Origin: a virus | Length of the DNA stretch: 64,000 bases | Direction: 5' to 3' (one strand) | Virus record (IMG/VR): IMGVR_UViG_3300037488_003551 | Coordinates: 1-64,000 of that record | Shown here: positions 22,608 to 44,823 of the stretch, piece by piece | Position numbering within the stretch: the first letter of the stretch is position 1 | How the letters are laid out: each line of letters starts with the position of its first letter | The notes under the pieces: model-generated | Told to the model about the DNA's origin: nothing | What the model saw: the letters and a program-made list of their open reading frames with translations, nothing else | Databases searched by the model: none | Position numbers and translations under genes: made by a program

Positions 22608-24689
22608 ATGATGAGAAAAATCGTCCACCTCGACCCTTACTTCCCGACTGGTGAGCTCACGATTCAGCCGGTTGTATTGTGGTCGGGGAGTAAGAAGTTT
22701 GTCGAACCCATCACGAAGCATGCAAGTGTTGGGGCAGACTTCTTCAAGACGATTCAGCCGGTACCCGGTCATAGCATCGTTTATGTTCTCGCTGTCAGCG
22801 CTTGGGAGCGTTATGGCGAAAACCGAAATGGTGACGGTTTTCCAGACCAGCCGTATATGGCGCATGCGGGAGGAATTCAAGAAACCGAGACTCTCCAAAA
22901 GCACTACAAATCTTTTGAGTCTGTTGGGAATGTTTTTCTCTCGCACGTTAACACCGACCCCATAAAAGCTGTAGGGCGCGTTATTAAAGCATTCTGGAAT
23001 GACTCGATGAAACGCGTCGAGCTTCTTTTGGATGTGGACAACGCTAAAGCTCCACGTGTGGTTGAGCGAATAGAAGCTGGGGAATATCCTGCGGTTTCGA
23101 TGGGGACGCGCGTTCCCTGGGACGTGTGCTCCCTACCCTCTTGTTTAAATCACGCACCCACCCGTGCCCAGTACTGCGACCACCTGCGTTTTCAAATGCG
23201 GGATGTTGTTAACGGCGTGAAGGTTGCCGCTCTTAATCCGAGCTGCAAATTTTTCGATATTTCTTGGGTGGTGCGGCCGGCAGACCCGAATGCCTATATG
23301 CTCAAGAAGGTTGCTGATGAGGCCTACGAAATCAAATATTCGGGGGCGGCAGCAGGTGAATACTTGGACGAAATGGAAGAGCGTAAGCTCGCGGCGCACA
23401 AGTTAGCGGTAATCGATAAAGTTGTTCAGGGTATTCCAGTCGATGCCAAGTCCGAAAATATCGATCCGATGCACCTACACAACGCCTGTGCAATGCAGCC
23501 GACGGCGATGTCGATGAGTCATGGTCTTCCAGAGCTCTCTGATTCTATCCTCCGGCAGCTGGCCTCGTCCTGCTCTCTTCCAGATATTTTCACGTCTACG
23601 CTTGCGATGGGCATGCCCCTATGCACGCGCGAGGTTGTGAAAATTACGATTTACCGTCAGATGCCTGGCGCCCCAAATATGGACGGAGTCGCGGATGCCG
23701 CGGTCTCCGCGCGTCAGCCTTTGATGGACCTTTTCCAAGAGCATCCGCAGATGTTGGATGCATATGAAGGTGACCTCGACATTGACCAGTGTCATTTGAA
23801 TCCTAAAGTAGCTGAAATCATTGGGACCGGAATGGAAAAACGTTCGGGTATTTATGAGTACTTGAAACGTAAGTACGTTCCTGGAAAGTACCGTGATGAT
23901 GCTACACGACTGACACCCTTTACTGTAACGGACCCGGTATCGGGACAACGTTATGGTACGAATCGACAAGCTGCTATTTTGGCACATGACGAAATCGCTA
24001 AAAAGAATTTACGGAAAGTTCTGGGAGGGGCTGCGGCTCTCGGAGGAGCGTATGGTTTAATTTCTTCTGGGTTGAGAAGTAGAGGATTGTCGAAGTTAAA
24101 TCCTCTAGTTGCAGGCACTCTTGGCGCAGTTGGATTAATGAATATGCCTTCTATGGGGCCGCATTATATGACGGACCAAGGTGTTCCTATTCCTGTCCTG
24201 ACTGAGCTCACCAAAATGAGCGCCGATTCTTCTGGTTTTGCACGTTCTTTAGCGTTACCTCTTTTTGGTACGCTGGGAACGATGGCGCTTTTAGGGATGG
24301 ACCGAAGGCATCGTTTAGCCCAAGGATATGTTCCAGGTAATCCCTACGAGAATGCGCCTCGTCGAGGGATAGATACTCTCAGTACCGCAGCTGCAAATCA
24401 CCCACTTCTTTTTGCAGGATTGGGTACGCTAGGAATGCGCGCTGCAGGGAATACCAGAGCTGCAAAATATCTCGGAGAGAATGTCGCTAAGCCACTTTTT
24501 AATAAAGGGCAAAAGGCTGTCAGTGGTATAGACGAATCCCTTCGAAGATGGGCTCAAAAAACTAGCCAAGAAATAATTGTGGGAGCGTCTATGAAAGCTG
24601 CGTCGGATTCCGTAAGCCTTCCAGTATTAGACATGGACAAAATCGCCGAAAGTCTTGGCGAGATTTTGTTAGGAAACACGGACTTGTGA
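22608..24689 (+). CDS. Prohead maturation protease (N-terminal) with glycine-zipper C-terminal extension
   Basis: NRNGDGFP, FLSHVN (His), AVSMGT (Ser), CSLPSC..CDH, FFDISWV.RPAD..A; lies upstream of the capsid genes. Confidence 0.8.
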   Translation: MMRKIVHLDPYFPTGELTIQPVVLWSGSKKFVEPITKHASVGADFFKTIQPVPGHSIVYVLAVSAWERYGENRNGDGFPDQPYMAHAGGIQETETLQKHYKSFESVGNVFLSHVNTDPIKAVGRVIKAFWNDSMKRVELLLDVDNAKAPRVVERIEAGEYPAVSMGTRVPWDVCSLPSCLNHAPTRAQYCDHLRFQMRDVVNGVKVAALNPSCKFFDISWVVRPADPNAYMLKKVADEAYEIKYSGAAAGEYLDEMEERKLAAHKLAVIDKVVQGIPVDAKSENIDPMHLHNACAMQPTAMSMSHGLPELSDSILRQLASSCSLPDIFTSTLAMGMPLCTREVVKITIYRQMPGAPNMDGVADAAVSARQPLMDLFQEHPQMLDAYEGDLDIDQCHLNPKVAEIIGTGMEKRSGIYEYLKRKYVPGKYRDDATRLTPFTVTDPVSGQRYGTNRQAAILAHDEIAKKNLRKVLGGAAALGGAYGLISSGLRSRGLSKLNPLVAGTLGAVGLMNMPSMGPHYMTDQGVPIPVLTELTKMSADSSGFARSLALPLFGTLGTMALLGMDRRHRLAQGYVPGNPYENAPRRGIDTLSTAAANHPLLFAGLGTLGMRAAGNTRAAKYLGENVAKPLFNKGQKAVSGIDESLRRWAQKTSQEIIVGASMKAASDSVSLPVLDMDKIAESLGEILLGNTDL

Positions 24690-24742: not shown

Positions 24743-25279
24743 ATGGAATTCGCTAAGATGCTCGCCGGTTTTAACGCTCCCGCAGCTGCACAAACTAAAA
24801 CGGCTAGCGTGGACAACACGAAACAGCAGATTGCTAGCGCTGTGGAAGCGACTAAGGTTGCTTCGGCAGCACAATCAACTGATGCTGTGGAGGCTCTTAT
24901 GAAGACAGCGGCTACGTTGGCTGAAAATGAGAAGACAGCTGAGCTGGTACACGCGCACATGAGCGGTCGCGCTTTTGCGCAAGGTGCTATGGAAGTGTTC
25001 GCGGTTGCTGACGCTGCAGCTCAGAAGGTAGCGTCGGAGACTGCTCCTTCGCCCAATGCGTACTACCAAGCAAAGATGGCTGCTGACCAGGAAGCCATGG
25101 TCAAGGCTGCTGCTGAGCAGGGTTATCACGACACGATGACCAAAGCTGCCGCTGAGTACAACCAAGGATACGAAGCAGCGGTACAGGATGCCGTGAAGGT
25201 CGCTGCCAACGAGTTCTACAAGGGTGCGCAAGAGGCCGCGATTATCATCCAGGCCGCTCGCAGCCAAAGGAACGGCTGA
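24743..25279 (+). CDS. Ala-rich putative scaffolding protein
   Basis: About nine K-x-A sites; GY repeats (QGYHD, QGYEA). Confidence 0.6.
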   Translation: MEFAKMLAGFNAPAAAQTKTASVDNTKQQIASAVEATKVASAAQSTDAVEALMKTAATLAENEKTAELVHAHMSGRAFAQGAMEVFAVADAAAQKVASETAPSPNAYYQAKMAADQEAMVKAAAEQGYHDTMTKAAAEYNQGYEAAVQDAVKVAANEFYKGAQEAAIIIQAARSQRNG

Positions 25280-26546: not shown

Positions 26547-27467
26547 ATGTCGTACAATGTTGAAACCTCTACTCATTCCGCGCAGTTCCTGAACAAGTCG
26601 TTCCTCTCCAAGGTTGAGGGCGGCCATGTGAAGGAAGCGGTCGAAGCCAGCTCGCTGTTCATTCGTGAGCGTCTTCGTCAGGCGGCAGCTGTCCGTGAAG
26701 TCATCGTCCCCCAAAGCGTGACCGAAGAGAACATCGACCGTGACGAGAGCACCGACCAGCCGAAGATCATCATCGACAAGGAGCCGAACTCAACGGCTTC
26801 TTTCGTGCAGTTCCAAGGCACCGGTCGCCGCACGTGGTTCAAGGGTCCCCGTTACTCCGTCCGCTTTGGTAAGGTCGAGTCACAGCGATTCACCAAGACC
26901 AAGGCGGAGCTCATGACCTACCGCTCCGACATTCGCAAGATTCTGTCGGACAACTCGGTCATGGATATGGCGGACGAAGAGGATCGCAAGTTCTACGAGC
27001 TCGTCGCCGCGATCATCGCCGCGAACCCGAGCGTACAGCGCACCACGGGCGCTTTCCAGAGCGGCACGTTCAAGGTTGCTTGCCAGGCGATGCTGACCGG
27101 TACGCGCAAGCGTCCTATCGGCAAGCTCCTGCTGAGCAAAGAGCGCTACATGGACGCGCTCGACCTGCCGGCGACCTCCGTCGGTGACGAGATTGCCAAG
27201 CGTCATTTTGACGAGGGCATCGAGTCCTCGCAGAAGCTCTGGGGTCTCCCCGTTGTGACGCACGTCAAGTCGGATATCTATCCGACCGACAAGGGTTGGA
27301 TTTTCTCTCCAACCACGCCGAACAACTTCCTGGGTAACTTCTTCACCCTGCAAGATGCCACTCTGTTCATCAAGCAGGAAGCAGACGTCATCTCCTTCTG
27401 GACCTACGAGTACGTTGGCCTCGGAATCGCCAACACTCTGTCCATGCAGGAAATCGTTTTCAGCTGA
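26547..27467 (+). CDS. Major capsid protein (HK97-fold, putative)
   Basis: FIRERLRQ...REVI, IIDKEP, ELMTYRSDIRKIL...D...EEDRKF, LWGLPVV, YEYVGLGIAN; strongest codon bias in the window; position after protease and scaffolds. Confidence 0.75.
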   Translation: MSYNVETSTHSAQFLNKSFLSKVEGGHVKEAVEASSLFIRERLRQAAAVREVIVPQSVTEENIDRDESTDQPKIIIDKEPNSTASFVQFQGTGRRTWFKGPRYSVRFGKVESQRFTKTKAELMTYRSDIRKILSDNSVMDMADEEDRKFYELVAAIIAANPSVQRTTGAFQSGTFKVACQAMLTGTRKRPIGKLLLSKERYMDALDLPATSVGDEIAKRHFDEGIESSQKLWGLPVVTHVKSDIYPTDKGWIFSPTTPNNFLGNFFTLQDATLFIKQEADVISFWTYEYVGLGIANTLSMQEIVFS

Positions 27468-37842: not shown

Positions 37843-38118
37843 ATGCGAAAAACAGCTGAAGATATTGCGCAGAAGGTGCTAGAAAAGAATGCACTATCTG
37901 TAGCACATGTTCGAAAGGTTCTTTTAAACGCTGACCCTAAAAGAATTCAAAATATGAGGTAGGATAGTCCGGTGATGCGTGTTGCGACAAAAGGTGGGAT
38001 AGGAGAAAGTGAGAGGTTCTTACAGGAATTAGAGCGGCGCCGTTTGGGTTTACCTCCGGTAGATGACTTGGCGGACATTGAAAGGTACGCACGGTCTATT
38101 AAATCTGCTCCGTGGTGA
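37843..38118 (+). pseudogene. Class B-leader gene interrupted by in-frame TAG at 37960-37962 (nonsense allele, readthrough, or two tiny ORFs)
   Basis: TATAATT, AGGAGG SD, then MRKTAEDIAQKVLEKNA; the frame stays open 51 codons past the TAG. Confidence 0.5.
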
Positions 38119-38187
38119 ACTTAAGCAATCAGCCTATAATTCTCAAAAAGTGGGCGCTGACTGCCCCGCATTAAAGGAGTTTTTTCC

Positions 38188-39024
38188 ATGCCACGAGTAA
38201 GAGTCAACGCCCTCATCGGTGCCGTGCATATTCAAGACCCGCAGCCTGCTACTGGCGGTTTGTCCGTGACCGCTGCAGCTGGGTCGTATAAAATCTTCGA
38301 CTGCAATTGGGATGTGTTTCAACGTATCGCTCCGCAGATTGCCGAGCTCGAGACGCTAGGCGCTGCGACCTTCACTGTTTCCGGTGGCACGGATAACTTC
38401 TGGGCGCAAGAGGGCGACCTTCCAGGCATGCCGCGCATCGACCGCGTGTCGAAGCATGACCTTGCGCTGACCGGTGAAGCCAGCATCGTCGTCGAAGGCC
38501 TCTACTTCTTAGGCGGGCAGAGCTTCGCGACCACGCGTCTCGACTACACGACCGCGAATACCGACCTCGTCATCTCCGCGCGCACCCCCGGCTACTGGGG
38601 CAACGCCCTCTCGGCTATCGTTTCTGACGACGGCGGTGGCGGCCTGGCCATCTCCGTGGTCGGCGGCGTGCAGCTGAAGATCGACCTCGGTGGTGCGACG
38701 CCCAATGCCACGACCATCGCTGCAGCTGTGAACGCGAGCGCTACCGCGAAGCTCCTTTTCAAAGCAGTGGTGGACGGTACCGGCGCCGGTCTCCCCACGG
38801 TCAAAGCTTCTCAGACCTTGGCAGGTGGCGAAGGCCCGGGCCTGGCTGTGACCTGCGCGGGCGTGGCTTGCGATGTCCTCACGATCACGGACGCACACCC
38901 GAGCTATTCGATGACCATCGCTATTCCGACCATGGCCGGCGTGTCAGCTTCCGGAGAAGGCGTGAACCTCGAGCTCCGGTCGGGTGGGAAGATTGCCACT
39001 GTTTCTCTGCAAATCGCTCCGTGA
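38188..39024 (+). CDS. Virion structural protein (sheath-insertion-like beta domain)
   Basis: ARTPGYWGNALS..IAAAVNA..LAGG motif; GC3-rich; own TATAATT promoter. Confidence 0.55.
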   Translation: MPRVRVNALIGAVHIQDPQPATGGLSVTAAAGSYKIFDCNWDVFQRIAPQIAELETLGAATFTVSGGTDNFWAQEGDLPGMPRIDRVSKHDLALTGEASIVVEGLYFLGGQSFATTRLDYTTANTDLVISARTPGYWGNALSAIVSDDGGGGLAISVVGGVQLKIDLGGATPNATTIAAAVNASATAKLLFKAVVDGTGAGLPTVKASQTLAGGEGPGLAVTCAGVACDVLTITDAHPSYSMTIAIPTMAGVSASGEGVNLELRSGGKIATVSLQIAP

Positions 39025-39042
39025 TAAGAAAGGACTCTCTCC

Positions 39043-39807
39043 ATGAAAAAGACAGCTCACCAAATTGCTAGTCACGTATTAGCAAAAGTTGCCGCTATTA
39101 CACCGGAAGAAATCGCAGCCGGATTGGCTGGCAATAAGATGCGCGATATCCCCCAAGAAGAGATTGACAGCCTAACGCAAGAGTACGGCGATAAGGCTTA
39201 TAAAGAACGCGCAAGCGCTCCTTGGTGGGGTGGTGGACTTGGTGGGGCTCTCGGTGGATTGGGAGGATTAGCGTTAAGCCAGGGTCGTCCTGCAGGTGGA
39301 CTCATTGGCTTAGGGATTGGCGGGGGACTGGGAGCTCTTCTCGGGCATGGAGTACGCACGGGTGCACGGTCTCAAGCGCGTGACCTGGGATCGACAGTCG
39401 GAGGAATTGCACAGTCAGGTCGTATTCCTTACGACTTTCCTGGACGCGTCCGAACAGATGACCTTATACCGTACGCTAAGGGTATTCAAGGAACTCCTGA
39501 GACCATGAATTTTCAGGACGAACAAGCCATCAGGGACCGGCTGACAAACCGGCTCATGCTTATGCGCGGAGCAGAAGGCGCAATTACTGGGGGTCTAACG
39601 AGCGCTCTGGCTAACCGAGATCGTGAAGACGCATCAGGGGATGCCGTACTCAGCGCCGCGCTTCAAGGTGGGATGGGAACATTGCGCGGACGCTCGGAAG
39701 CGCGTGAGATGGCGCGCAAAGTCCTAGACCTAAAATCTCGTGGGTATGGGACGCTGTCTGATCGTTACTACAACGACGCCCTTGACCCAGAAATCCTGGG
39801 CTATTAA
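39043..39807 (+). CDS. Glycine-zipper cargo protein with class B leader
   Basis: MKKTAHQIASHVLAKVAAITPEEIA; GGLGGALGGLGG. Confidence 0.65.
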   Translation: MKKTAHQIASHVLAKVAAITPEEIAAGLAGNKMRDIPQEEIDSLTQEYGDKAYKERASAPWWGGGLGGALGGLGGLALSQGRPAGGLIGLGIGGGLGALLGHGVRTGARSQARDLGSTVGGIAQSGRIPYDFPGRVRTDDLIPYAKGIQGTPETMNFQDEQAIRDRLTNRLMLMRGAEGAITGGLTSALANRDREDASGDAVLSAALQGGMGTLRGRSEAREMARKVLDLKSRGYGTLSDRYYNDALDPEILGY

Positions 39808-39831
39808 GCCAAGTTCTCCTAGAATTAGGGC

Positions 39832-42402
39832 ATGAAAAAGTCAGCCCTTCAAATCGCAGATGCAGTAAGAGCCAAACCTGAAGAACCTAGCGCGTTACGG
39901 AGGGCTGCACCTTGGCTTACCGCGGCCGGGACTGGAGCTCTAGGGTATGGCCTTTTGCGCCGAAGGAGCTTCGCTCCTATTGGGACACAACTGCGGTCTC
40001 TCCAAGAAGCGGCAAAGAATAAGCCTTTTAGTATAGCGACTTCGGGTGGAACGCCTTGGGCACAAAAAATTCGCTCCATGATTATGGGTGCTCCTGTCCA
40101 TACGACCGGAGAAAAGGTGAAAGGAACGGTTCTTCATCACACACCAAACCCTAAAGGTGGGGGTGATATTAATATAAATGCGGGAAATATTACAGACGCT
40201 CTTCAAGACAAAGCTGTCTTTGATCGTGTTATGCGTGAAGGTGTTGGTGCGGGACCTGGAATGGCTTCTTCTCTCCCAAATACAATGCGTCTTGATGAAG
40301 CACTAAAACGCGTAGGAGGAGACCCAAAGCGCTTAAAAGAAATCTATCCAGATTTTATGTTAAAAGCCCGAAGCGAATCAATGGGAAGGGGTATTTTTAA
40401 ATCGTTAGATGACCCCGGCGTAAATGAAGCTATTCAAAATCCAAGTCAATTTATCTTCCAAGAGAAGATGCCCATAAAGAATGAGTTCCGCGTACATACT
40501 ATAGATAACGAGCCGTTTACGGCGACGCACCGTTTTATGCCCAATAAAACGTTACGTGGTTTATGGAATCGAGTGGCTGGTGGAGGAGGCGGAGCTTTCG
40601 TTCCTCTGGTGGGAAAGAGACGAAGAGCTCTCCATGATTTTATTAGGCAGAGCACGGCGCATCTAAAACCAGCGGACGGTAAAAGCCTCTCAGACGTAGG
40701 AGAGTCTATGCATGTTGCCTGGGACGTTGCGGAGCTTCCTGATGGCACGTTCAAGCTTATTGAAGCCAACCCTGTACCGGGTACTATGATGAACCCGGGT
40801 ATTGCACAAAAACTTCAAAAACAAATAACTGGAAGATGGTCTAGACCCGTTGCAGCTTTAGGAGGAACTGCTTTAGCAGGCACATCTGGAGTTGCCGCTA
40901 ATAAGATTTTAGGCGGTCCTTCAAACAATGTAGCGGAGACATCTCCTATGAAAAAAACAGCGGACCAAATCAGTTGGAGCGTTCTGTTAAAGGTCGCAGC
41001 CGGAGCGGAAGGTAATCCCGAAATATGGCGCAAAATGGTAGACCGTATCGCTAAAAGCAAAGGTATACCAAAACCTACTGATGCTCAATTCCAAGAGATG
41101 TTTCCTAAGGATTTTGCAACCTCGGGAAAAACATTAGAAGATGCCATACAAGGTTCTGCTTGGTTTAAGCAGGGCACTTCAAGTGGCATGGGAGCTCAAG
41201 GTAGCAATTGGAATCGGGGATCTAGCGGTGGCGCTTGGGGACCAGGAGCAGATGATGCAGTCGCTGCTACGGAAGCTGCGCGCCAAAGAGAGTTGATGGC
41301 TTTAAGTCTTGTGAGCGGCATGCATAATGTAATGGGTTTAGGCGCGGCTGGAAGTGGAATTGGTACGGCTGCTACTGGGATTCATAGCACAACACAGGCT
41401 AAAACTCCAGAGGAACGCGCAGCTGTTTTAGGCCTGAGTGGAGGACTCGCAGGTTATTCTGGAGGGTCTGCTTTCGATAATTTTAGAAAAGCAAAATTAT
41501 ATAAAGACCTTCAAAATGCTATGTCCAATCCTACTGGTCCGAATTATTCGCAACGAGTAACAGATATATCTAATAAAATTATGAGAAAGCCTAAAGCATT
41601 TTCTCCTCAGCGTATTGGCGGATTAGCAGGTGTTGGTCTGGGTCTAGGCGGAGCTGCACTTTGGAATTATTTAGCCAGAGATAAACCTATGAGTAAGGCA
41701 GCGGCTATTACACCAGAAGAAATAGCTACAGGTTTAAGCGGACGAGCTGCACGTCCAGAAATTACGCTAGCGGAAATCATGGAACTTCGTAACAAACTTC
41801 GCCAAGAAGAATATGCTAAGCGGAGAGGGACACCTATAAAGTGGGGTATAGGTGGTGGCTTATTAGGCGCTGCTATTGGCGCTCTTTCGAGTAGAAAAAA
41901 GGGCTTAGGTAAATTACCCAGAACTTTAATTGAGGCAGGATTAGGAGCCGGTTTAGGCGGCTTTTTAGGAGAAACAAGTCGCAGCTTGGACAGTGATGCG
42001 ATGCTAGACCGCGGAAATATTCTAGGAAGAATAGCTAGAACAGGAAACTTGAAGCTAGTAGCGGATTCAGAAAATGCAAAAGATTACGCTCCCTTCGCAA
42101 TTGGAAGTCAACCAGGCGCTAAACCCTTAACGGAAGAGGAGACACACGCTCTTCGTAATCAAGTGTTAAAACAACGAAGTTTAGGCGGCGCAGTTAGGGG
42201 TGCTCCTTTCGCAGCTCTATCCGGAATACTCGGCGCCGCTGCTAAAGCTCCTCCTGGGGCCATAGCAGAATCTATGGCTTTCCCGCTTTTAACTGGAACG
42301 TACCTCGGAGCAAATAGAGCAGTAGACCAATCAAATACGTTAGTAGATTTGCACAACAGGGGGTATGGCGACCTAGCACGCATCATCCAAAAAGATTGGT
42401 AG
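39832..42402 (+). CDS. Three-module polyprotein: ATP-grasp (RimK-like) ligase plus two glycine-zipper modules
   Basis: FMLKARSESMGRGIF, IFQEKM, EFRVH, AWDV, LIEANPVPG (ATP-grasp); internal modules paralogous to the 42410 and 39043 ORFs. Confidence 0.75.
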   Translation: MKKSALQIADAVRAKPEEPSALRRAAPWLTAAGTGALGYGLLRRRSFAPIGTQLRSLQEAAKNKPFSIATSGGTPWAQKIRSMIMGAPVHTTGEKVKGTVLHHTPNPKGGGDININAGNITDALQDKAVFDRVMREGVGAGPGMASSLPNTMRLDEALKRVGGDPKRLKEIYPDFMLKARSESMGRGIFKSLDDPGVNEAIQNPSQFIFQEKMPIKNEFRVHTIDNEPFTATHRFMPNKTLRGLWNRVAGGGGGAFVPLVGKRRRALHDFIRQSTAHLKPADGKSLSDVGESMHVAWDVAELPDGTFKLIEANPVPGTMMNPGIAQKLQKQITGRWSRPVAALGGTALAGTSGVAANKILGGPSNNVAETSPMKKTADQISWSVLLKVAAGAEGNPEIWRKMVDRIAKSKGIPKPTDAQFQEMFPKDFATSGKTLEDAIQGSAWFKQGTSSGMGAQGSNWNRGSSGGAWGPGADDAVAATEAARQRELMALSLVSGMHNVMGLGAAGSGIGTAATGIHSTTQAKTPEERAAVLGLSGGLAGYSGGSAFDNFRKAKLYKDLQNAMSNPTGPNYSQRVTDISNKIMRKPKAFSPQRIGGLAGVGLGLGGAALWNYLARDKPMSKAAAITPEEIATGLSGRAARPEITLAEIMELRNKLRQEEYAKRRGTPIKWGIGGGLLGAAIGALSSRKKGLGKLPRTLIEAGLGAGLGGFLGETSRSLDSDAMLDRGNILGRIARTGNLKLVADSENAKDYAPFAIGSQPGAKPLTEEETHALRNQVLKQRSLGGAVRGAPFAALSGILGAAAKAPPGAIAESMAFPLLTGTYLGANRAVDQSNTLVDLHNRGYGDLARIIQKDW

Positions 42403-42409
42403 AAAAGAT

Positions 42410-43408
42410 ATGTACAAAACTGCCGAACAGATCAGTTGGAATATCCTACTAAAAGCGGCTGCGAGTGAAGGTGGTAACCCTGAACTGTGGCGCAAGATGG
42501 TAGACCGTATAGCCAAAAGTAAGGGAATGCCAGCGCCTACTGACGCCGAGTTTGCAGAGATGTTTCCTCCTGATTTCGCGACTTCCAGTAAAACAATGGA
42601 AGACGCCATCCAGGGGTCCAAGTGGTTTAACAAGGCAAATGCAGGTCCATCTGCGTCCTCTCCGAGTTCTAATCCGTACGCGGATTACAATCCACGTTCG
42701 AGTTCAAGTTCGAGACAATACTCGTCTCCATTTGATGACTTTTTTTCAAGGTATAACCAGCAGGCAAGACAAAATTCGAATTGGTGGGATAAGACGTGGG
42801 ACGCAGAGAGTCAAGCACGAGCCGAAGCACGTAAAGCTGAGCAGCAAGCGAGTGACGCGCAATGGGAAGAAAGAAGACAGCGGCAAACTCGCGAGTCCGC
42901 AGACCGGGAAAAAGCATACCAAGAAAAACAAAAAGGTTATAGCCGCAGTACCTCGGCATCGACCGAGTCAAATAAGTACTATGACCAAGCTCGCGGTATG
43001 AAGAACCGTGCCGCCGCATATACGGCAGGGCTCCCAACTGCATTGGGTATGAGCGGATTAGCCATTGGAGCTGCGACTGAGGACAAAGATAAACGTAATG
43101 TAATTATGGGAGGTACAGGCGCAGGCGCAGGGGCCTCTATGGGATATGGAAGTGTCCTCGAAGAGAACGCTCGGCGGTTTAGGAATGCTATAAAACCTAT
43201 TCCTTTTTCTGTTGATGAAGGCTTTCAAGTTATGAAGCCTTACAATAAAATGAAAGCTACTCCCCATACAGTTATGGGTGGACTTCTTGGATTAGGTTTG
43301 GGTCTGGGTGGGTCTCACTTGATACAAAAAGCCTTCTATGACCAAAAGAAGACCCCTATGCGAAAAGCCGCTTCTGAAATTGCGGCATCGATTCTTAGAA
43401 ATTATTGA
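42410..43408 (+). CDS. Glycine-zipper cargo protein with class B motif at both ends
   Basis: MYKTAEQISWNILLKAAA...; C-terminal MRKAASEIAASIL. Confidence 0.65.
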   Translation: MYKTAEQISWNILLKAAASEGGNPELWRKMVDRIAKSKGMPAPTDAEFAEMFPPDFATSSKTMEDAIQGSKWFNKANAGPSASSPSSNPYADYNPRSSSSSRQYSSPFDDFFSRYNQQARQNSNWWDKTWDAESQARAEARKAEQQASDAQWEERRQRQTRESADREKAYQEKQKGYSRSTSASTESNKYYDQARGMKNRAAAYTAGLPTALGMSGLAIGAATEDKDKRNVIMGGTGAGAGASMGYGSVLEENARRFRNAIKPIPFSVDEGFQVMKPYNKMKATPHTVMGGLLGLGLGLGGSHLIQKAFYDQKKTPMRKAASEIAASILRNY

Positions 43409-44823
43409 GTCGTATCTCTCTGTAGAAGTCGCATTAATTGATTATTCAAATCTTTTTTGTTCTTCGACATATCTGCTAATACATCTTCTACTCCAATTGG
43501 GTCCTTTTTTGTTATTCTCTGCCAAAGGTTGGCTTGTGGATGCGTGACGTATTGCTGGACAAGAACGTTACGCTTGTCCTCAGGTAAATCTGTGTGTGAA
43601 CCATGCCGAATCGCACGTCCAATAACCTGGTCGAGTTTTTCTTCATTCCAGTGAGGCTCTAAAACTTGGACCAGCCGCGTCCCTTTTAAGTCCAGACCTT
43701 CGCCACCTGCGGATGAGAGGAGCAAGGCCCGCAATTTCCCAGCGTTGTAATCGTCGATGGCAGCCTGGCGCTCTCCTTTTGGTACTGACCCCGTAAAAAG
43801 TTTGCTAGGAATTCCCTGCGATTCAAGTTGCTGCTGGTATTCGGATAGGTTGTTTAGATAATTGGAATATACGATGGCTTTGGAAGTAGGGTCAGACTTA
43901 ATACGCTTAGCTAGTTCTTGAACCGCGTACATTGTTTTGGGAGAGGCTTCGCCACGAACATACTTATTAGTGGAACCTGATATCTGTCTAGCCTGCGATT
44001 CAAATTTATTAAACGCTGAAAGTTCTTTCCCAGCAGGCAAAGCGCCATGCTCCAACTTTTTACGCAGACTTCGTGGAAGTGTTCCCCATGCGGCAGCGTG
44101 TAATCGCGTTTGCAGATCCGACATAGGAACGCGTACACGCTCGTCCATACGCGTTGGGAAATCCCCACTCGTATTGTCTTGATAATCTACCCACTTTTGG
44201 AGGACGCCCTTGAGCTCATCCGTATTTTTCAATACAGGCTTCATAGGCTTTCCTCGAAGGCGGTACCACCAACTTGGATTTCTTGGGGGTTTACTGATAT
44301 ATTTTTCGTTGAAAGTAGCTCCCACAGGAAGAACAGATTTACCTGCTGCGATGTTGACAAGCGGAGCTATATCGGAAGGCCTGTTATATACAGGCGTTGC
44401 AGTCAAAAGCATCCGTTTAGCCGCGGGATATTGCGCGAGAAGTTTATTAAGACCTGTAGATGTCTCGCGAGCTTTATGCGCTTCGTCTACAACTAAAAGG
44501 TCAGAGGGGATTGTTTCACCTGATAGCGCATCTCTCTGCTGACTTCGTACCTGGATATTATTAGGACCTTTGAGATGCTTGGCAATTTCCTTTTGGTAGT
44601 TGGGAACCAAAGATGCGGGAGCTAAGACGGTCGTATTTCCACTTTGTCCCGCAGCTGCCGCGAGGGAACTTAACGTTTTTCCTGTGCCTAACCCGTGTGC
44701 TACAACCAGCCCCGGCTGTTTTTTAAGACGGTCTACTACGCGCTGTTGATGCGGGAGTAACTGCGTTAAAACTTCCGCTGCAGTTTTATTGAATATTCCA
44801 GAAGGAATGGTCTTCGGTTTCAT
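43402..44823 (-). CDS. Second SNF2-family helicase, with N-terminal KTAA site
   Basis: HGLGTGKT, DEAH, LTATP, GGEGLDL, QVIGRAIRHGSH; leaderless start after TAAAATT. Confidence 0.9.
   Translation of the reverse strand: MKPKTIPSGIFNKTAAEVLTQLLPHQQRVVDRLKKQPGLVVAHGLGTGKTLSSLAAAAGQSGNTTVLAPASLVPNYQKEIAKHLKGPNNIQVRSQQRDALSGETIPSDLLVVDEAHKARETSTGLNKLLAQYPAAKRMLLTATPVYNRPSDIAPLVNIAAGKSVLPVGATFNEKYISKPPRNPSWWYRLRGKPMKPVLKNTDELKGVLQKWVDYQDNTSGDFPTRMDERVRVPMSDLQTRLHAAAWGTLPRSLRKKLEHGALPAGKELSAFNKFESQARQISGSTNKYVRGEASPKTMYAVQELAKRIKSDPTSKAIVYSNYLNNLSEYQQQLESQGIPSKLFTGSVPKGERQAAIDDYNAGKLRALLLSSAGGEGLDLKGTRLVQVLEPHWNEEKLDQVIGRAIRHGSHTDLPEDKRNVLVQQYVTHPQANLWQRITKKDPIGVEDVLADMSKNKKDLNNQLMRLLQRDTTQ

What the first reader, a model, noticed from the sequence alone, without database searches (positions are those of the whole stretch)
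37843..43408. Second (class B) leader 'MxKxAxxIxxxxLxKxA' repeated six times in a cargo cluster
Seen: MRKTAEDIAQKVLEKNA (37843), MKKTAHQIASHVLAKVAA (39043), MKKSALQIADAVRAK (39832), internal MKKTADQISWSVLLKVAA (40948), MYKTAEQISWNILLKAAA (42410) and C-terminal MRKAASEIAASILRNY (43358). The complete copies form an amphipathic helix bracketed by two KxA sites. The motif can lie N-terminally, internally or C-terminally. Inference: it is an excisable targeting helix, perhaps binding a different prohead receptor than class A, which would give two sorting codes in one phage.
Basis: partly seen in the sequence, partly recalled or inferred. Interest (0 to 1): 0.8.

Follow-up and report, generated by a model that had tools for sequence, protein, structure and literature searches.

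The report
Portable K-x-A tag on phage proteins
An uncultured 173-kb phage puts the same 15-18-residue helix, bracketed by Lys-x-Ala sites, at the start, middle or end of otherwise unrelated proteins; it is most likely a cut-off "load and process" tag for proteins packed into the virus head, comparable to the phage T4 capsid-targeting sequence but with a different sequence code, and no experiment has yet tested this.

Summary
All six copies lie at the stated coordinates. They are the only matches in six frames of the 172,892-bp genome (0 in 60 simulated genomes). A second locus at 92.5-93.3 kb holds three weaker copies.

Paralogy explains only part of it. Copies 40948 and 42410 head a duplicated 87-aa module. 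The other copies sit on unrelated sequence: a TM helix plus ATP-grasp enzyme, the p254 module, a hypervariable small gene, a C-terminus and an HExxH protein. Orthologues keep all four positions they share, including the C-terminal copy.

The tag is portable:
- Orthologous ATP-grasp proteins carry the other (class A) tag at the same point.
- A 96% relative has the same tag on a different body in the same slot.
- One homologue has two tandem tags.

K-x-A behaves like a head-protease site. It is enriched in head-assembly proteins (60 vs 23) in this phage, in six relatives and in cultured phage Arash. It is avoided in the bodies of the tagged proteins (1 vs 8.5). It is kept only at tags and module junctions.

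Cleavage, targeting and virion location are inferred, not shown. "Two sorting codes" is not supported, and amphipathicity is weak. The scan has noted similar K-x-A tags in other uncultured phages.

The parts
37843..37896 (+). Class B tag copy 1. It is the N-terminus of a 39-codon ORF (37843-37962) that ends in TAG; a 48-codon ORF (37972-38118) follows in the same frame.
   Evidence: A 96%-related phage has, in the same slot, a 94-aa ORF with the same tag and an unrelated body. The slot is empty in L003 and L006.
39043..39096 (+). Class B tag copy 2. It is the N-terminus of the 254-aa protein (39043-39807): tag, then ITPEEIA module, then glycine-zipper segments.
   Evidence: In 12 homologues the tag is kept, with K15 and A17 invariant; one has two tandem tags and one a tag 4 aa shorter. 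The gene is absent from L003 and L006.
39832..39876 (+). Class B tag copy 3. It is the N-terminus of the 856-aa protein and lacks the second K-x-A. A hydrophobic helix follows (aa 24-44).
   Evidence: Orthologues P0007-P0009 keep it. P0010, P0011 and L030 have a class A-type tag at the same point.
40087..40878 (+). ATP-grasp (R2K-clade-like) domain of the 856-aa protein. This is the cargo enzyme.
   Evidence: Pfam R2K_3 hits below cut-off, E 0.0013-0.0068, in homologues. Invariant columns run from G86 to A349, including E311-x-N313. 29% identity, E 1e-30, to a stand-alone 390-aa homologue in L030.
40948..41001 (+). Class B tag copy 4, internal (aa 373-390 of the 856-aa protein). It heads the B-module (aa 391-459, nt 41002-41208).
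   Evidence: (65% identity to aa 1-87 of the 332-aa protein). No Shine-Dalgarno sequence is conserved in front of its Met in orthologues.
41689..41706 (+). Degenerate junction 'MSKAAA' between the p332-like and p254-like modules of the 856-aa protein. The tag core is missing and one K-A-A site is kept.
   Evidence: DKAAS conserved in all orthologues; alignment with the p254 family.
42410..42463 (+). Class B tag copy 5. It is the N-terminus of the 332-aa protein (42410-43408), followed by the B-module.
   Evidence: The B-module family has 31 representatives, and most start with this tag at residue 1.
43358..43405 (+). Class B tag copy 6. It is the last 16 residues of the 332-aa protein, directly after a glycine-zipper helix.
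   Evidence: All six orthologues keep K-A-A-S-x-I-A-x-x-[IV]-L. In P0004 the Met is Gln, so the Met is not a required start codon.
22608..24689 (+). Candidate prohead protease (693 aa). K-x-A sites are conserved at aa ~37-39 (TK[HY]AS) and at the end of the protease domain (KKVA[DE]E).
   Evidence: phrog_18299 head maturation protease, E 1e-6. Synteny with phage Arash. Twelve orthologues aligned. No Pfam or PDB sequence match.
24743..25279 (+). Scaffold-like 178-aa protein with 8 K-x-A-[AS] sites (1.2 expected).
   Evidence: The same enrichment is seen in the equivalent ORF of six relatives and in Arash gp223.
26631..26639 (+). K29-E30-A31 near the N-terminus of the 306-aa major capsid protein (26547-27467). 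This is a candidate maturation site.
   Evidence: [VIK]-K-E-A lies at the same place in the capsid proteins of L016, L017, L022, L023 and Arash gp226. The capsid protein was assigned by synteny and size with Arash gp226.

Best explanation
The class B motif is a portable 15-18-residue helical tag. Its full form is M-[KR]-K-x-A, then about 9 residues (x-Q-I-[AS]-x-x-[VI]-L-x), then K-x-A-A.

It marks proteins that enter the prohead and meet the head maturation protease. That protease most likely recognises K-x-[A/S/G]. The same protease degrades the K-x-A-rich scaffold-like proteins and trims the capsid protein.

Placed at an N-terminus, the tag would be removed like a T4 capsid-targeting sequence. 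Placed between modules (residues 373-390, and the reduced site at 622 of the 856-aa protein), it would cut a polyprotein into an ATP-grasp enzyme plus two glycine-zipper proteins. Placed at a C-terminus, it would be clipped off.

Shown here: the motif, its portability, its conservation, and the enrichment and avoidance pattern of K-x-A.
Inferred: cleavage, head location, and that the helix is itself the address rather than only a processing cassette.

Classes A and B look like interchangeable variants, not two destinations.
For: (1) Not chance: 6 matches against 0 in simulations.

(2) At least six unrelated contexts in this genome:
- a small hypervariable gene;
- the p254 module;
- TM helix plus ATP-grasp;
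- the B-module;
- the C-terminus after a Gly-zipper;
- an HExxH protein.

(3) Orthologues at 41-98% identity keep the tag at all four shared positions. The C-terminal copy is kept even where its Met is lost.

(4) Tag swapping. The ATP-grasp orthologues P0010, P0011 and L030, and the B-module members P0034, P0037 and P0041, carry a class A-type tag at the same point.

(5) Same slot and same tag with a different body in a 96% relative. Tandem and shortened tags occur in p254 homologues, with the K-x-A columns invariant.

(6) K-x-A counts:
- head operon, 60 vs 23 expected;
- tail proteins, 5 vs 7;
- rest of the genome, 180 vs 190.
The head-operon enrichment recurs in six diverged relatives and in cultured phage Arash, gp220, gp223 and gp225. 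K-E-A is conserved at residue ~30 of the capsid protein, Arash included, and at the protease domain boundary.

(7) Site avoidance. Outside the tags, the three cluster proteins have 1 K-x-A against 8.5 expected (P<=0.001). L003 has 2 vs 7.8 and L006 2 vs 8.4. K-x-S and K-x-G are also depleted, while R-x-A, A-x-K and K-x-L are not. Four of the five K-x-A sites of the 856-aa protein lie at tags or the module junction, and all five are conserved.

(8) The Arash virion proteome holds 116 proteins. They include the RNA polymerase, many enzymes, and helicase gp217, which is 37% identical to the helicase next to this cluster (PMC10585845).

(9) AF2 gives the tag helices lower confidence (pLDDT 28-56) than the adjoining B-module core (55-81). 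This speaks against their being an integral part of the fold.
Against: - There are no proteomic or cleavage data for this phage or for any tagged orthologue.
- The protease is assigned only by a PHROG hit (E 1e-6) and synteny. Its fold and specificity are unknown.
- The cluster lies behind the tail sheath, tube and spike genes, not in the head operon.
- The second tagged cluster (91-96 kb) shows no K-x-A avoidance.
- Copy 39832 and both C-terminal copies lack the second K-x-A.
- [SAG]-x-E is also depleted in the cargo bodies (6 vs 19.4). Some of the order bias may therefore be unrelated to the protease.
- In the widespread B-module family, the second half of the tag (W-x-x-L-x-K-x-A-A-V-D-P) is part of the conserved module.
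- Both AF2 models are poor (mean pLDDT 49 and 43).
Confidence: 0.52

Rival explanations
1. Processing cassette only. The helix with its K-x-A sites is a substrate-recognition and linker element for the protease. It separates modules and trims ends. Entry into the prohead would be directed by something else, for example the glycine-zipper segments or the B-module.
For: K-x-A is the most invariant part of the tag. At residue 622 of the 856-aa protein the helix core is missing and only K-A-A is kept and conserved. Internal and C-terminal positions suit a linker better than an address.
Against: The residues between the two sites are also conserved across unrelated carriers (I-[AS]-x-x-[VI]-L). Tags are swapped as whole units. 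A bare K-x-A would be enough for cutting.
Confidence: 0.2
2. Docking or oligomerisation helix. The motif lets the paralogous glycine-zipper proteins pair with each other, N-terminal tag with C-terminal tag, to build one membrane-active ejection complex. The K-x-A brackets would be incidental.
For: The 332-aa protein has the motif at both ends. In the second locus a C-terminal copy (93223) directly precedes an N-terminal copy on the next protein (93276). All carriers have hydrophobic Gly-rich helices.
Against: Amphipathicity is not above shuffles. This reading does not explain K-x-A avoidance in the bodies, K-x-A enrichment in head-assembly proteins, or the A/B swap on orthologues.
Confidence: 0.12
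3. Tail or baseplate cargo signal. The tag loads the proteins into the tail tube or onto the spike, like the N-terminal packing signals of extracellular contractile injection systems, and not into the head.
For: The cluster directly follows the sheath, tube and gp5-like spike genes. The second cluster precedes fibre-like genes. In distant relatives the tagged genes also follow the spike.
Against: The K-x-A link points to the head protease. Tail proteins show neither enrichment nor avoidance of K-x-A. Class A tags also sit in the head operon.
Confidence: 0.08
4. Plain paralogy and relic gene starts. The motif is only the inherited N-terminus of one family. Internal and C-terminal copies would be leftovers of gene fusion and truncation, with no function of their own.
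For: The 856-aa protein is a fusion of an ATP-grasp unit with copies of both neighbours. Internal copies keep a Met. The C-terminal copy lies where a p254-like module starts in the fused form.
Against: The C-terminal copy is conserved in six orthologues whose middle parts have diverged, and it survives loss of its Met. The tag sits on non-homologous bodies. It is exchanged for class A on orthologues.
Confidence: 0.05

Closest known systems
Capsid-targeting sequence (CTS) of phage T4 internal proteins IPI-III and Alt, removed by prohead protease gp21 (Mullaney and Black 1996, cited in PMC10052503; details from my own knowledge)
   Same: Both are short peptides shared by unrelated proteins and end in the motif that also marks head-assembly proteins. 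The same slot can hold different cargo behind a conserved tag, which recalls the variable T4 internal-protein locus.
   Different: There is no sequence similarity. The presumed site is K-x-A, not [LI]-x-E. The tag is longer (15-18 aa against about 10) and has a site at both ends. It is also used internally and C-terminally. Two tag classes occur in one genome. Function is untested.
Propeptides of head and ejection proteins of giant phages SPN3US, phiKZ and 201phi2-1, cut by gp245/gp175 at A-x-E-type sites (PMC10052503, PMC5694885)
   Same: Both are large phages that pack an RNA polymerase and many proteins into the head. One protease motif is shared by the capsid, portal, scaffold-like and ejection proteins. 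The SPN3US protease carries a C-terminal propeptide.
   Different: Those propeptides are 20-254 residues long, N-terminal except in the protease, and do not share one portable sequence. Here the motif is K-x-A, and [SAG]-x-E is not enriched in the head operon.
Polyvalent proteins of phages and conjugative elements (Iyer et al. 2017, cited in PMC7824862)
   Same: Enzyme domains of the same repertoire appear in tagged proteins and are sometimes fused: InPase plus ATP-grasp in P0010 and P0011, NUDIX, and an HExxH peptidase-like protein, predicted to be injected with the DNA.
   Different: Here the units are mostly separate genes or a three-module fusion. They are joined by a defined short tag with protease-type sites, rather than being one giant protein with its own processing peptidase.
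Cargo-loading peptides of encapsulins (my own knowledge)
   Same: Both are short peptides that can sit at either end of unrelated cargo enzymes and direct them into an HK97-fold shell.
   Different: Encapsulin peptides bind the shell protein and are not cut off. There is no sequence relation. Here a protease motif brackets the tag.

Membership tests
T4-type capsid-targeting sequence | One short peptide shared by otherwise unrelated proteins | tested here: met
   At least six unrelated contexts in this genome, plus tag swaps and cargo swaps in relatives.
T4-type capsid-targeting sequence | The peptide ends in the prohead protease's cleavage motif, which is shared with capsid and scaffold proteins | tested here: inconclusive
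   K-x-A ends the full tags. It is enriched in head-assembly proteins (60 vs 23), conserved at residue ~30 of the capsid protein, and avoided in cargo bodies. No cleavage has been observed.
T4-type capsid-targeting sequence | Strictly N-terminal position | tested here: not met
   Conserved internal and C-terminal copies exist.
T4-type capsid-targeting sequence | The peptide is necessary and sufficient for packaging into the prohead, and the carriers are found in virions | not testable with these tools
   The phage is uncultured. The only related virion proteome (Arash, PMC10585845) does not include orthologues of the class B carriers.
T4-type capsid-targeting sequence | Sequence homology to the T4 CTS or use of the [LI]-x-E site | tested here: not met
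   No PHROG or Pfam hit for any carrier. [SAG]-x-E is at expectation in the head operon (62 vs 55). [LI]-x-E is only mildly raised there (36 vs 24, P 0.004) and does not end the tags. Neither is raised in the Arash head-assembly proteins, although the Arash capsid protein has [LI]-x-E 7 vs 3.4 (z 2.3).
R2K-clade ATP-grasp (PF14243/PF18299; PMC4431377), for the cargo domain of the 856-aa protein | Match to the family model above its cut-off | tested here: inconclusive
   R2K_3 gives E 0.0013-0.0068 at 17-19 bits against a cut-off of 26.3, in homologues P0007, P0008 and P0010. There is no hit for the window protein itself. The AF2 model was too poor for a fold search.
Polyvalent protein (Iyer et al. 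2017) | A large protein with several effector enzyme domains | tested here: not met
   The 856-aa protein has one recognisable enzyme domain. Only the distant relatives P0010 and P0011 combine InPase and ATP-grasp.

The most novel reading that the evidence does not exclude
A whole lineage of large phages, reaching the cultured Salmonella phage Arash, uses a head-protease code (K-x-small residue) that has not been described. On top of that code it has evolved short, exchangeable helical tags that work at the N-terminus, between domains or at the C-terminus. One signal would then both load enzymes into the capsid and cut polyproteins into working parts, giving a programmable cargo-loading system that could be moved onto foreign proteins.
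Probability: 0.3. Interest if true: 0.8.

Novelty: new variant of a known kind. Interest (0 to 1): 0.62.

Why it matters
How large phages choose which of their many proteins go into the capsid is known in mechanistic detail only for T4. A second, unrelated code would show that cargo addressing by protease-bracketed tags is a general solution, particularly one that works at any position in a protein and is shared by a widespread uncultured lineage.

It would also:
- allow the injected proteome of these phages to be predicted from sequence; here that proteome includes an ATP-grasp ligase, a NUDIX hydrolase, an HExxH protein and glycine-zipper proteins;
- give a handle for loading foreign proteins into capsids.

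The K-x-A prediction can be tested now in the cultured phage Arash.

Tried and rejected
- DNA and protein searches of the cluster against 50,697 phage records found nothing.
- Pfam and PHROGs gave no family for any carrier.
- The ESM Atlas gave no usable neighbour for the B-module.
- Both AF2 models were poor (mean pLDDT 49.3 and 42.8). No fold search was run, and the ATP-grasp fold could not be confirmed.
- A PDB sequence search with the 856-aa family and with the protease family found nothing. Pfam on the protease family gave only weak zinc-ribbon noise.
- Internal translation start at residue 373: rejected, because no Shine-Dalgarno sequence is conserved in orthologues.
- Membrane-targeting amphipathic helix: weak. 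The hydrophobic moment is within the shuffle range, and the carriers already have hydrophobic helices.
- Sigma-70 promoter and terminator scans of the cluster were at chance level.
- Relatives of the second-locus HExxH protein were not found in IMG/VR or in three related contigs. Conservation of those three copies is therefore untested.
- The gapless tag profile does not score the tag-like stretches of the scaffold-like protein, so that resemblance stays anecdotal.
- The SNF2 helicase start (NKTAAEVLTQLL) resembles the tag in register, but the profile does not score it and it runs into the helicase Q-motif. It is treated as unproven.
Full report
SETTING. The window is the first 64 kb of a 172,892-bp IMG/VR virus record, estimated 97% complete. 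It encodes:
- a split multisubunit RNA polymerase;
- a head operon with a PHROG-level prohead protease at 22608-24689;
- a 306-aa capsid protein, assigned by synteny with Salmonella phage Arash;
- sheath-, tube- and gp5-like spike genes.
The closest cultured relatives are distant: Arash and Vibrio phages D69, D148 and D181.

OBSERVATION. The strict pattern has no other match in six frames of the whole genome. It found none in 60 simulated genomes and none in 200 protein shuffles. A profile built from the six copies finds three weaker copies in a second locus:
- 92509, internal;
- 93223, C-terminal;
- 93276, N-terminal on a protein with an HELGH motif.
That locus also holds a NUDIX protein with an internal class A motif. 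The helices are predicted, but only at low confidence. The hydrophobic moment (0.33) is not clearly above shuffles (0.25 +/- 0.13).

HOW MUCH IS PARALOGY. The 856-aa protein is a mosaic:
- residues 373-459 are 65% identical to residues 1-87 of the 332-aa protein;
- residues 496-625 resemble residues 196-322 of the 332-aa protein;
- residues 620-849 are 32% identical to the 254-aa protein (E 5e-25).
Copies 40948 and 42410 are therefore one duplicated unit. A profile of that unit finds 31 representative proteins among 1.84 billion. Most of them start with the tag at residue 1. In this family the second half of the tag belongs to the conserved module.

The other copies are attached to unrelated sequence. 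The AF2 models give the tag helices pLDDT 28-56, against 55-81 for the module core.

At the junction where the p254-like module begins inside the 856-aa protein, the tag core is missing. A single K-A-A remains and is conserved in every orthologue.

CONSERVATION AND PORTABILITY.
- Orthologous clusters in L003 (55% identity) and L006/L007 (58%) keep the tag at the N-terminus and at the internal site of the 856-aa homologue. They also keep it at both ends of the 332-aa homologue.
- The C-terminal copy is kept in all six 332-aa orthologues although their central parts have diverged strongly. In one orthologue its Met is Gln.
- No ribosome-binding site is conserved before the internal Met.
- The 254-aa gene and the small 37843 gene are absent from L003 and L006.
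- In a 96%-related contig the 37843 slot holds a 94-aa ORF with the same tag and an unrelated body. DNA similarity ends 18 nt into the ORF.
- In the window this small gene is interrupted by TAG.
- Twelve homologues of the 254-aa protein keep the tag. One has two tags in tandem and one has a tag 4 residues shorter. The K and A of the second site are invariant.
- The ATP-grasp orthologues in P0010, P0011 and L030 carry a class A-type motif (aromatic-x-x-G-x-x-x-A-x-x-x-L-G-L). It sits exactly where the window protein has class B, in front of the same hydrophobic helix.
- Three B-module relatives likewise start with class A.
- In the more distant relatives, every tagged gene behind the spike is class A.
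Class B therefore appears to be a sub-lineage variant that has been copied onto several proteins.

THE K-x-A LINK.

Enrichment:
- K-x-A-[AS] occurs 79 times against 39.6 expected genome-wide, and the excess lies in the head operon.
- With local shuffles, head-operon proteins have 60 K-x-A against 23 expected. Tail proteins have 5 vs 7 and all other genes 180 vs 190.
- The same enrichment appears in the same assembly proteins of six diverged relatives, and not in their neck and tail proteins.
- It also appears in Arash gp220, gp223 and gp225. The T4-type and phiKZ-type motifs are not enriched in these Arash assembly proteins.

Conserved sites:
- K-E-A at residue ~29-31 of the capsid protein is conserved from this phage to Arash.
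- K-x-A sites at residue ~37 and at the end of the protease domain are kept in all 12 protease orthologues.

Avoidance:
- Outside their tags, the three cluster proteins contain 1 K-x-A where 8.5 are expected (P<=0.001). The L003 and L006 orthologues have 2 vs 7.8 and 2 vs 8.4.
- Among twelve control motifs, only K-x-A is both enriched in the head operon and depleted in the cargo bodies.
- K-x-S and K-x-G are also depleted there. R-x-A, A-x-K and K-x-L are not.
- The five K-x-A sites of the 856-aa protein are at residues 3, 279, 375, 387 and 622. These are the tags, the junction, and one conserved K-P-A inside the enzyme domain.
Enrichment in proteins that are to be degraded, avoidance in proteins that are to be kept, and retention at boundaries is the pattern expected for a maturation-protease site.

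INTERPRETATION. The best reading is a T4-CTS-like tag written in a different code. It is bracketed by protease sites and is usable at either end or between modules. The 856-aa protein would then be a small polyprotein.

Support from a relative: the Arash virion proteome contains 116 proteins. They include the RNA polymerase, many enzymes, and a helicase 37% identical to the one beside this cluster. Heavy protein packaging therefore seems to be a trait of this lineage.

What is not shown:
- that the protease cuts K-x-A;
- that the tagged proteins are in virions;
- that the helix is the address rather than a processing cassette.

Points that do not fit cleanly:
- the cluster sits among tail genes;
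- the second cluster shows no avoidance;
- [SAG]-x-E is also depleted in the cargo bodies.

The 'two sorting codes' idea is not supported, because the two classes replace each other on orthologous cargo.

NOVELTY. I found no description of this tag or of a K-x-A head-protease motif in the papers searched. The known systems use [LI]-x-E (T4) or A-x-E-type sites (SPN3US, phiKZ) and N-terminal propeptides (PMC10052503). Other follow-ups of this scan have reported K-x-A-ending tags in other uncultured phages. Those are unchecked notes, and I did not use them as evidence. I class the finding as a new variant of a known kind.

Noticed in passing
window 37843-38118: The small tagged gene is split by an in-frame TAG (37960-37962) into 39 and 48 codons, 91 positions in all with the intervening codons. 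The 96% relative has an intact 94-aa tagged ORF with a different body in the same slot. This looks like a hypervariable cargo slot behind a conserved tag and ribosome-binding site, and in this genome the gene is possibly inactivated.
   Followed up: partly
window 43402-44823 (- strand): The 473-aa SNF2 helicase is 37% identical to Arash gp217, which is abundant in Arash virions. The window protein has a 16-residue N-terminal extension containing N-K-T-A-A that Arash lacks.
   Followed up: partly
genome 93223-93290 (outside the window; locus L024 3224-3291): The 312-aa tagged protein ends ...KKK-TGA on a run of nine A. The ATG of the next tagged gene overlaps this run in the -1 frame. This could be translational coupling or possibly slippage that fuses the two proteins.
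   Followed up: no
genome 91276-95734 (outside the window; locus L024): This is a second tagged cluster. It holds a NUDIX protein with an internal class A motif, a protein starting MPFKSKSQQRFMF (an N-terminal domain shared with B-module relatives P0023, P0025, P0028 and P0030), an HELGH protein and a 496-aa glycine-zipper protein. It lies just upstream of fibre-like genes.
   Followed up: partly
proteins P0020, P0033, P0034, P0037, P0041: Five of 27 B-module family members end in K-x-A-A followed by the stop codon (0.8 expected). It is as if the genes end at the presumed cleavage site.
   Followed up: partly
window 24743-25279 and Arash gp223 (L033 10392-11159): The scaffold-like proteins contain stretches that resemble the tags with one indel: QQIASAVEATKVAS in the window protein, and a stretch in Arash that joins class B-like and class A-like halves. 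The tags may therefore derive from, or mimic, scaffold segments.
   Followed up: no
window 39043-43408: [SAG]-x-E, the phiKZ/SPN3US-type site, is strongly depleted in the bodies of the three cluster proteins (6 vs 19.4). It is not enriched in the head operon. This is unexplained.
   Followed up: no
L004 5648-6304, L005 6484-7152, L029 15389-15988, L030 16877-17494: In the distant relatives the tagged gene block contains a conserved protein of about 200-220 aa with an A-[ED]-S-N-G motif. This suggests a lytic transglycosylase, which would be a possible virion-borne cell-wall enzyme.
   Followed up: no
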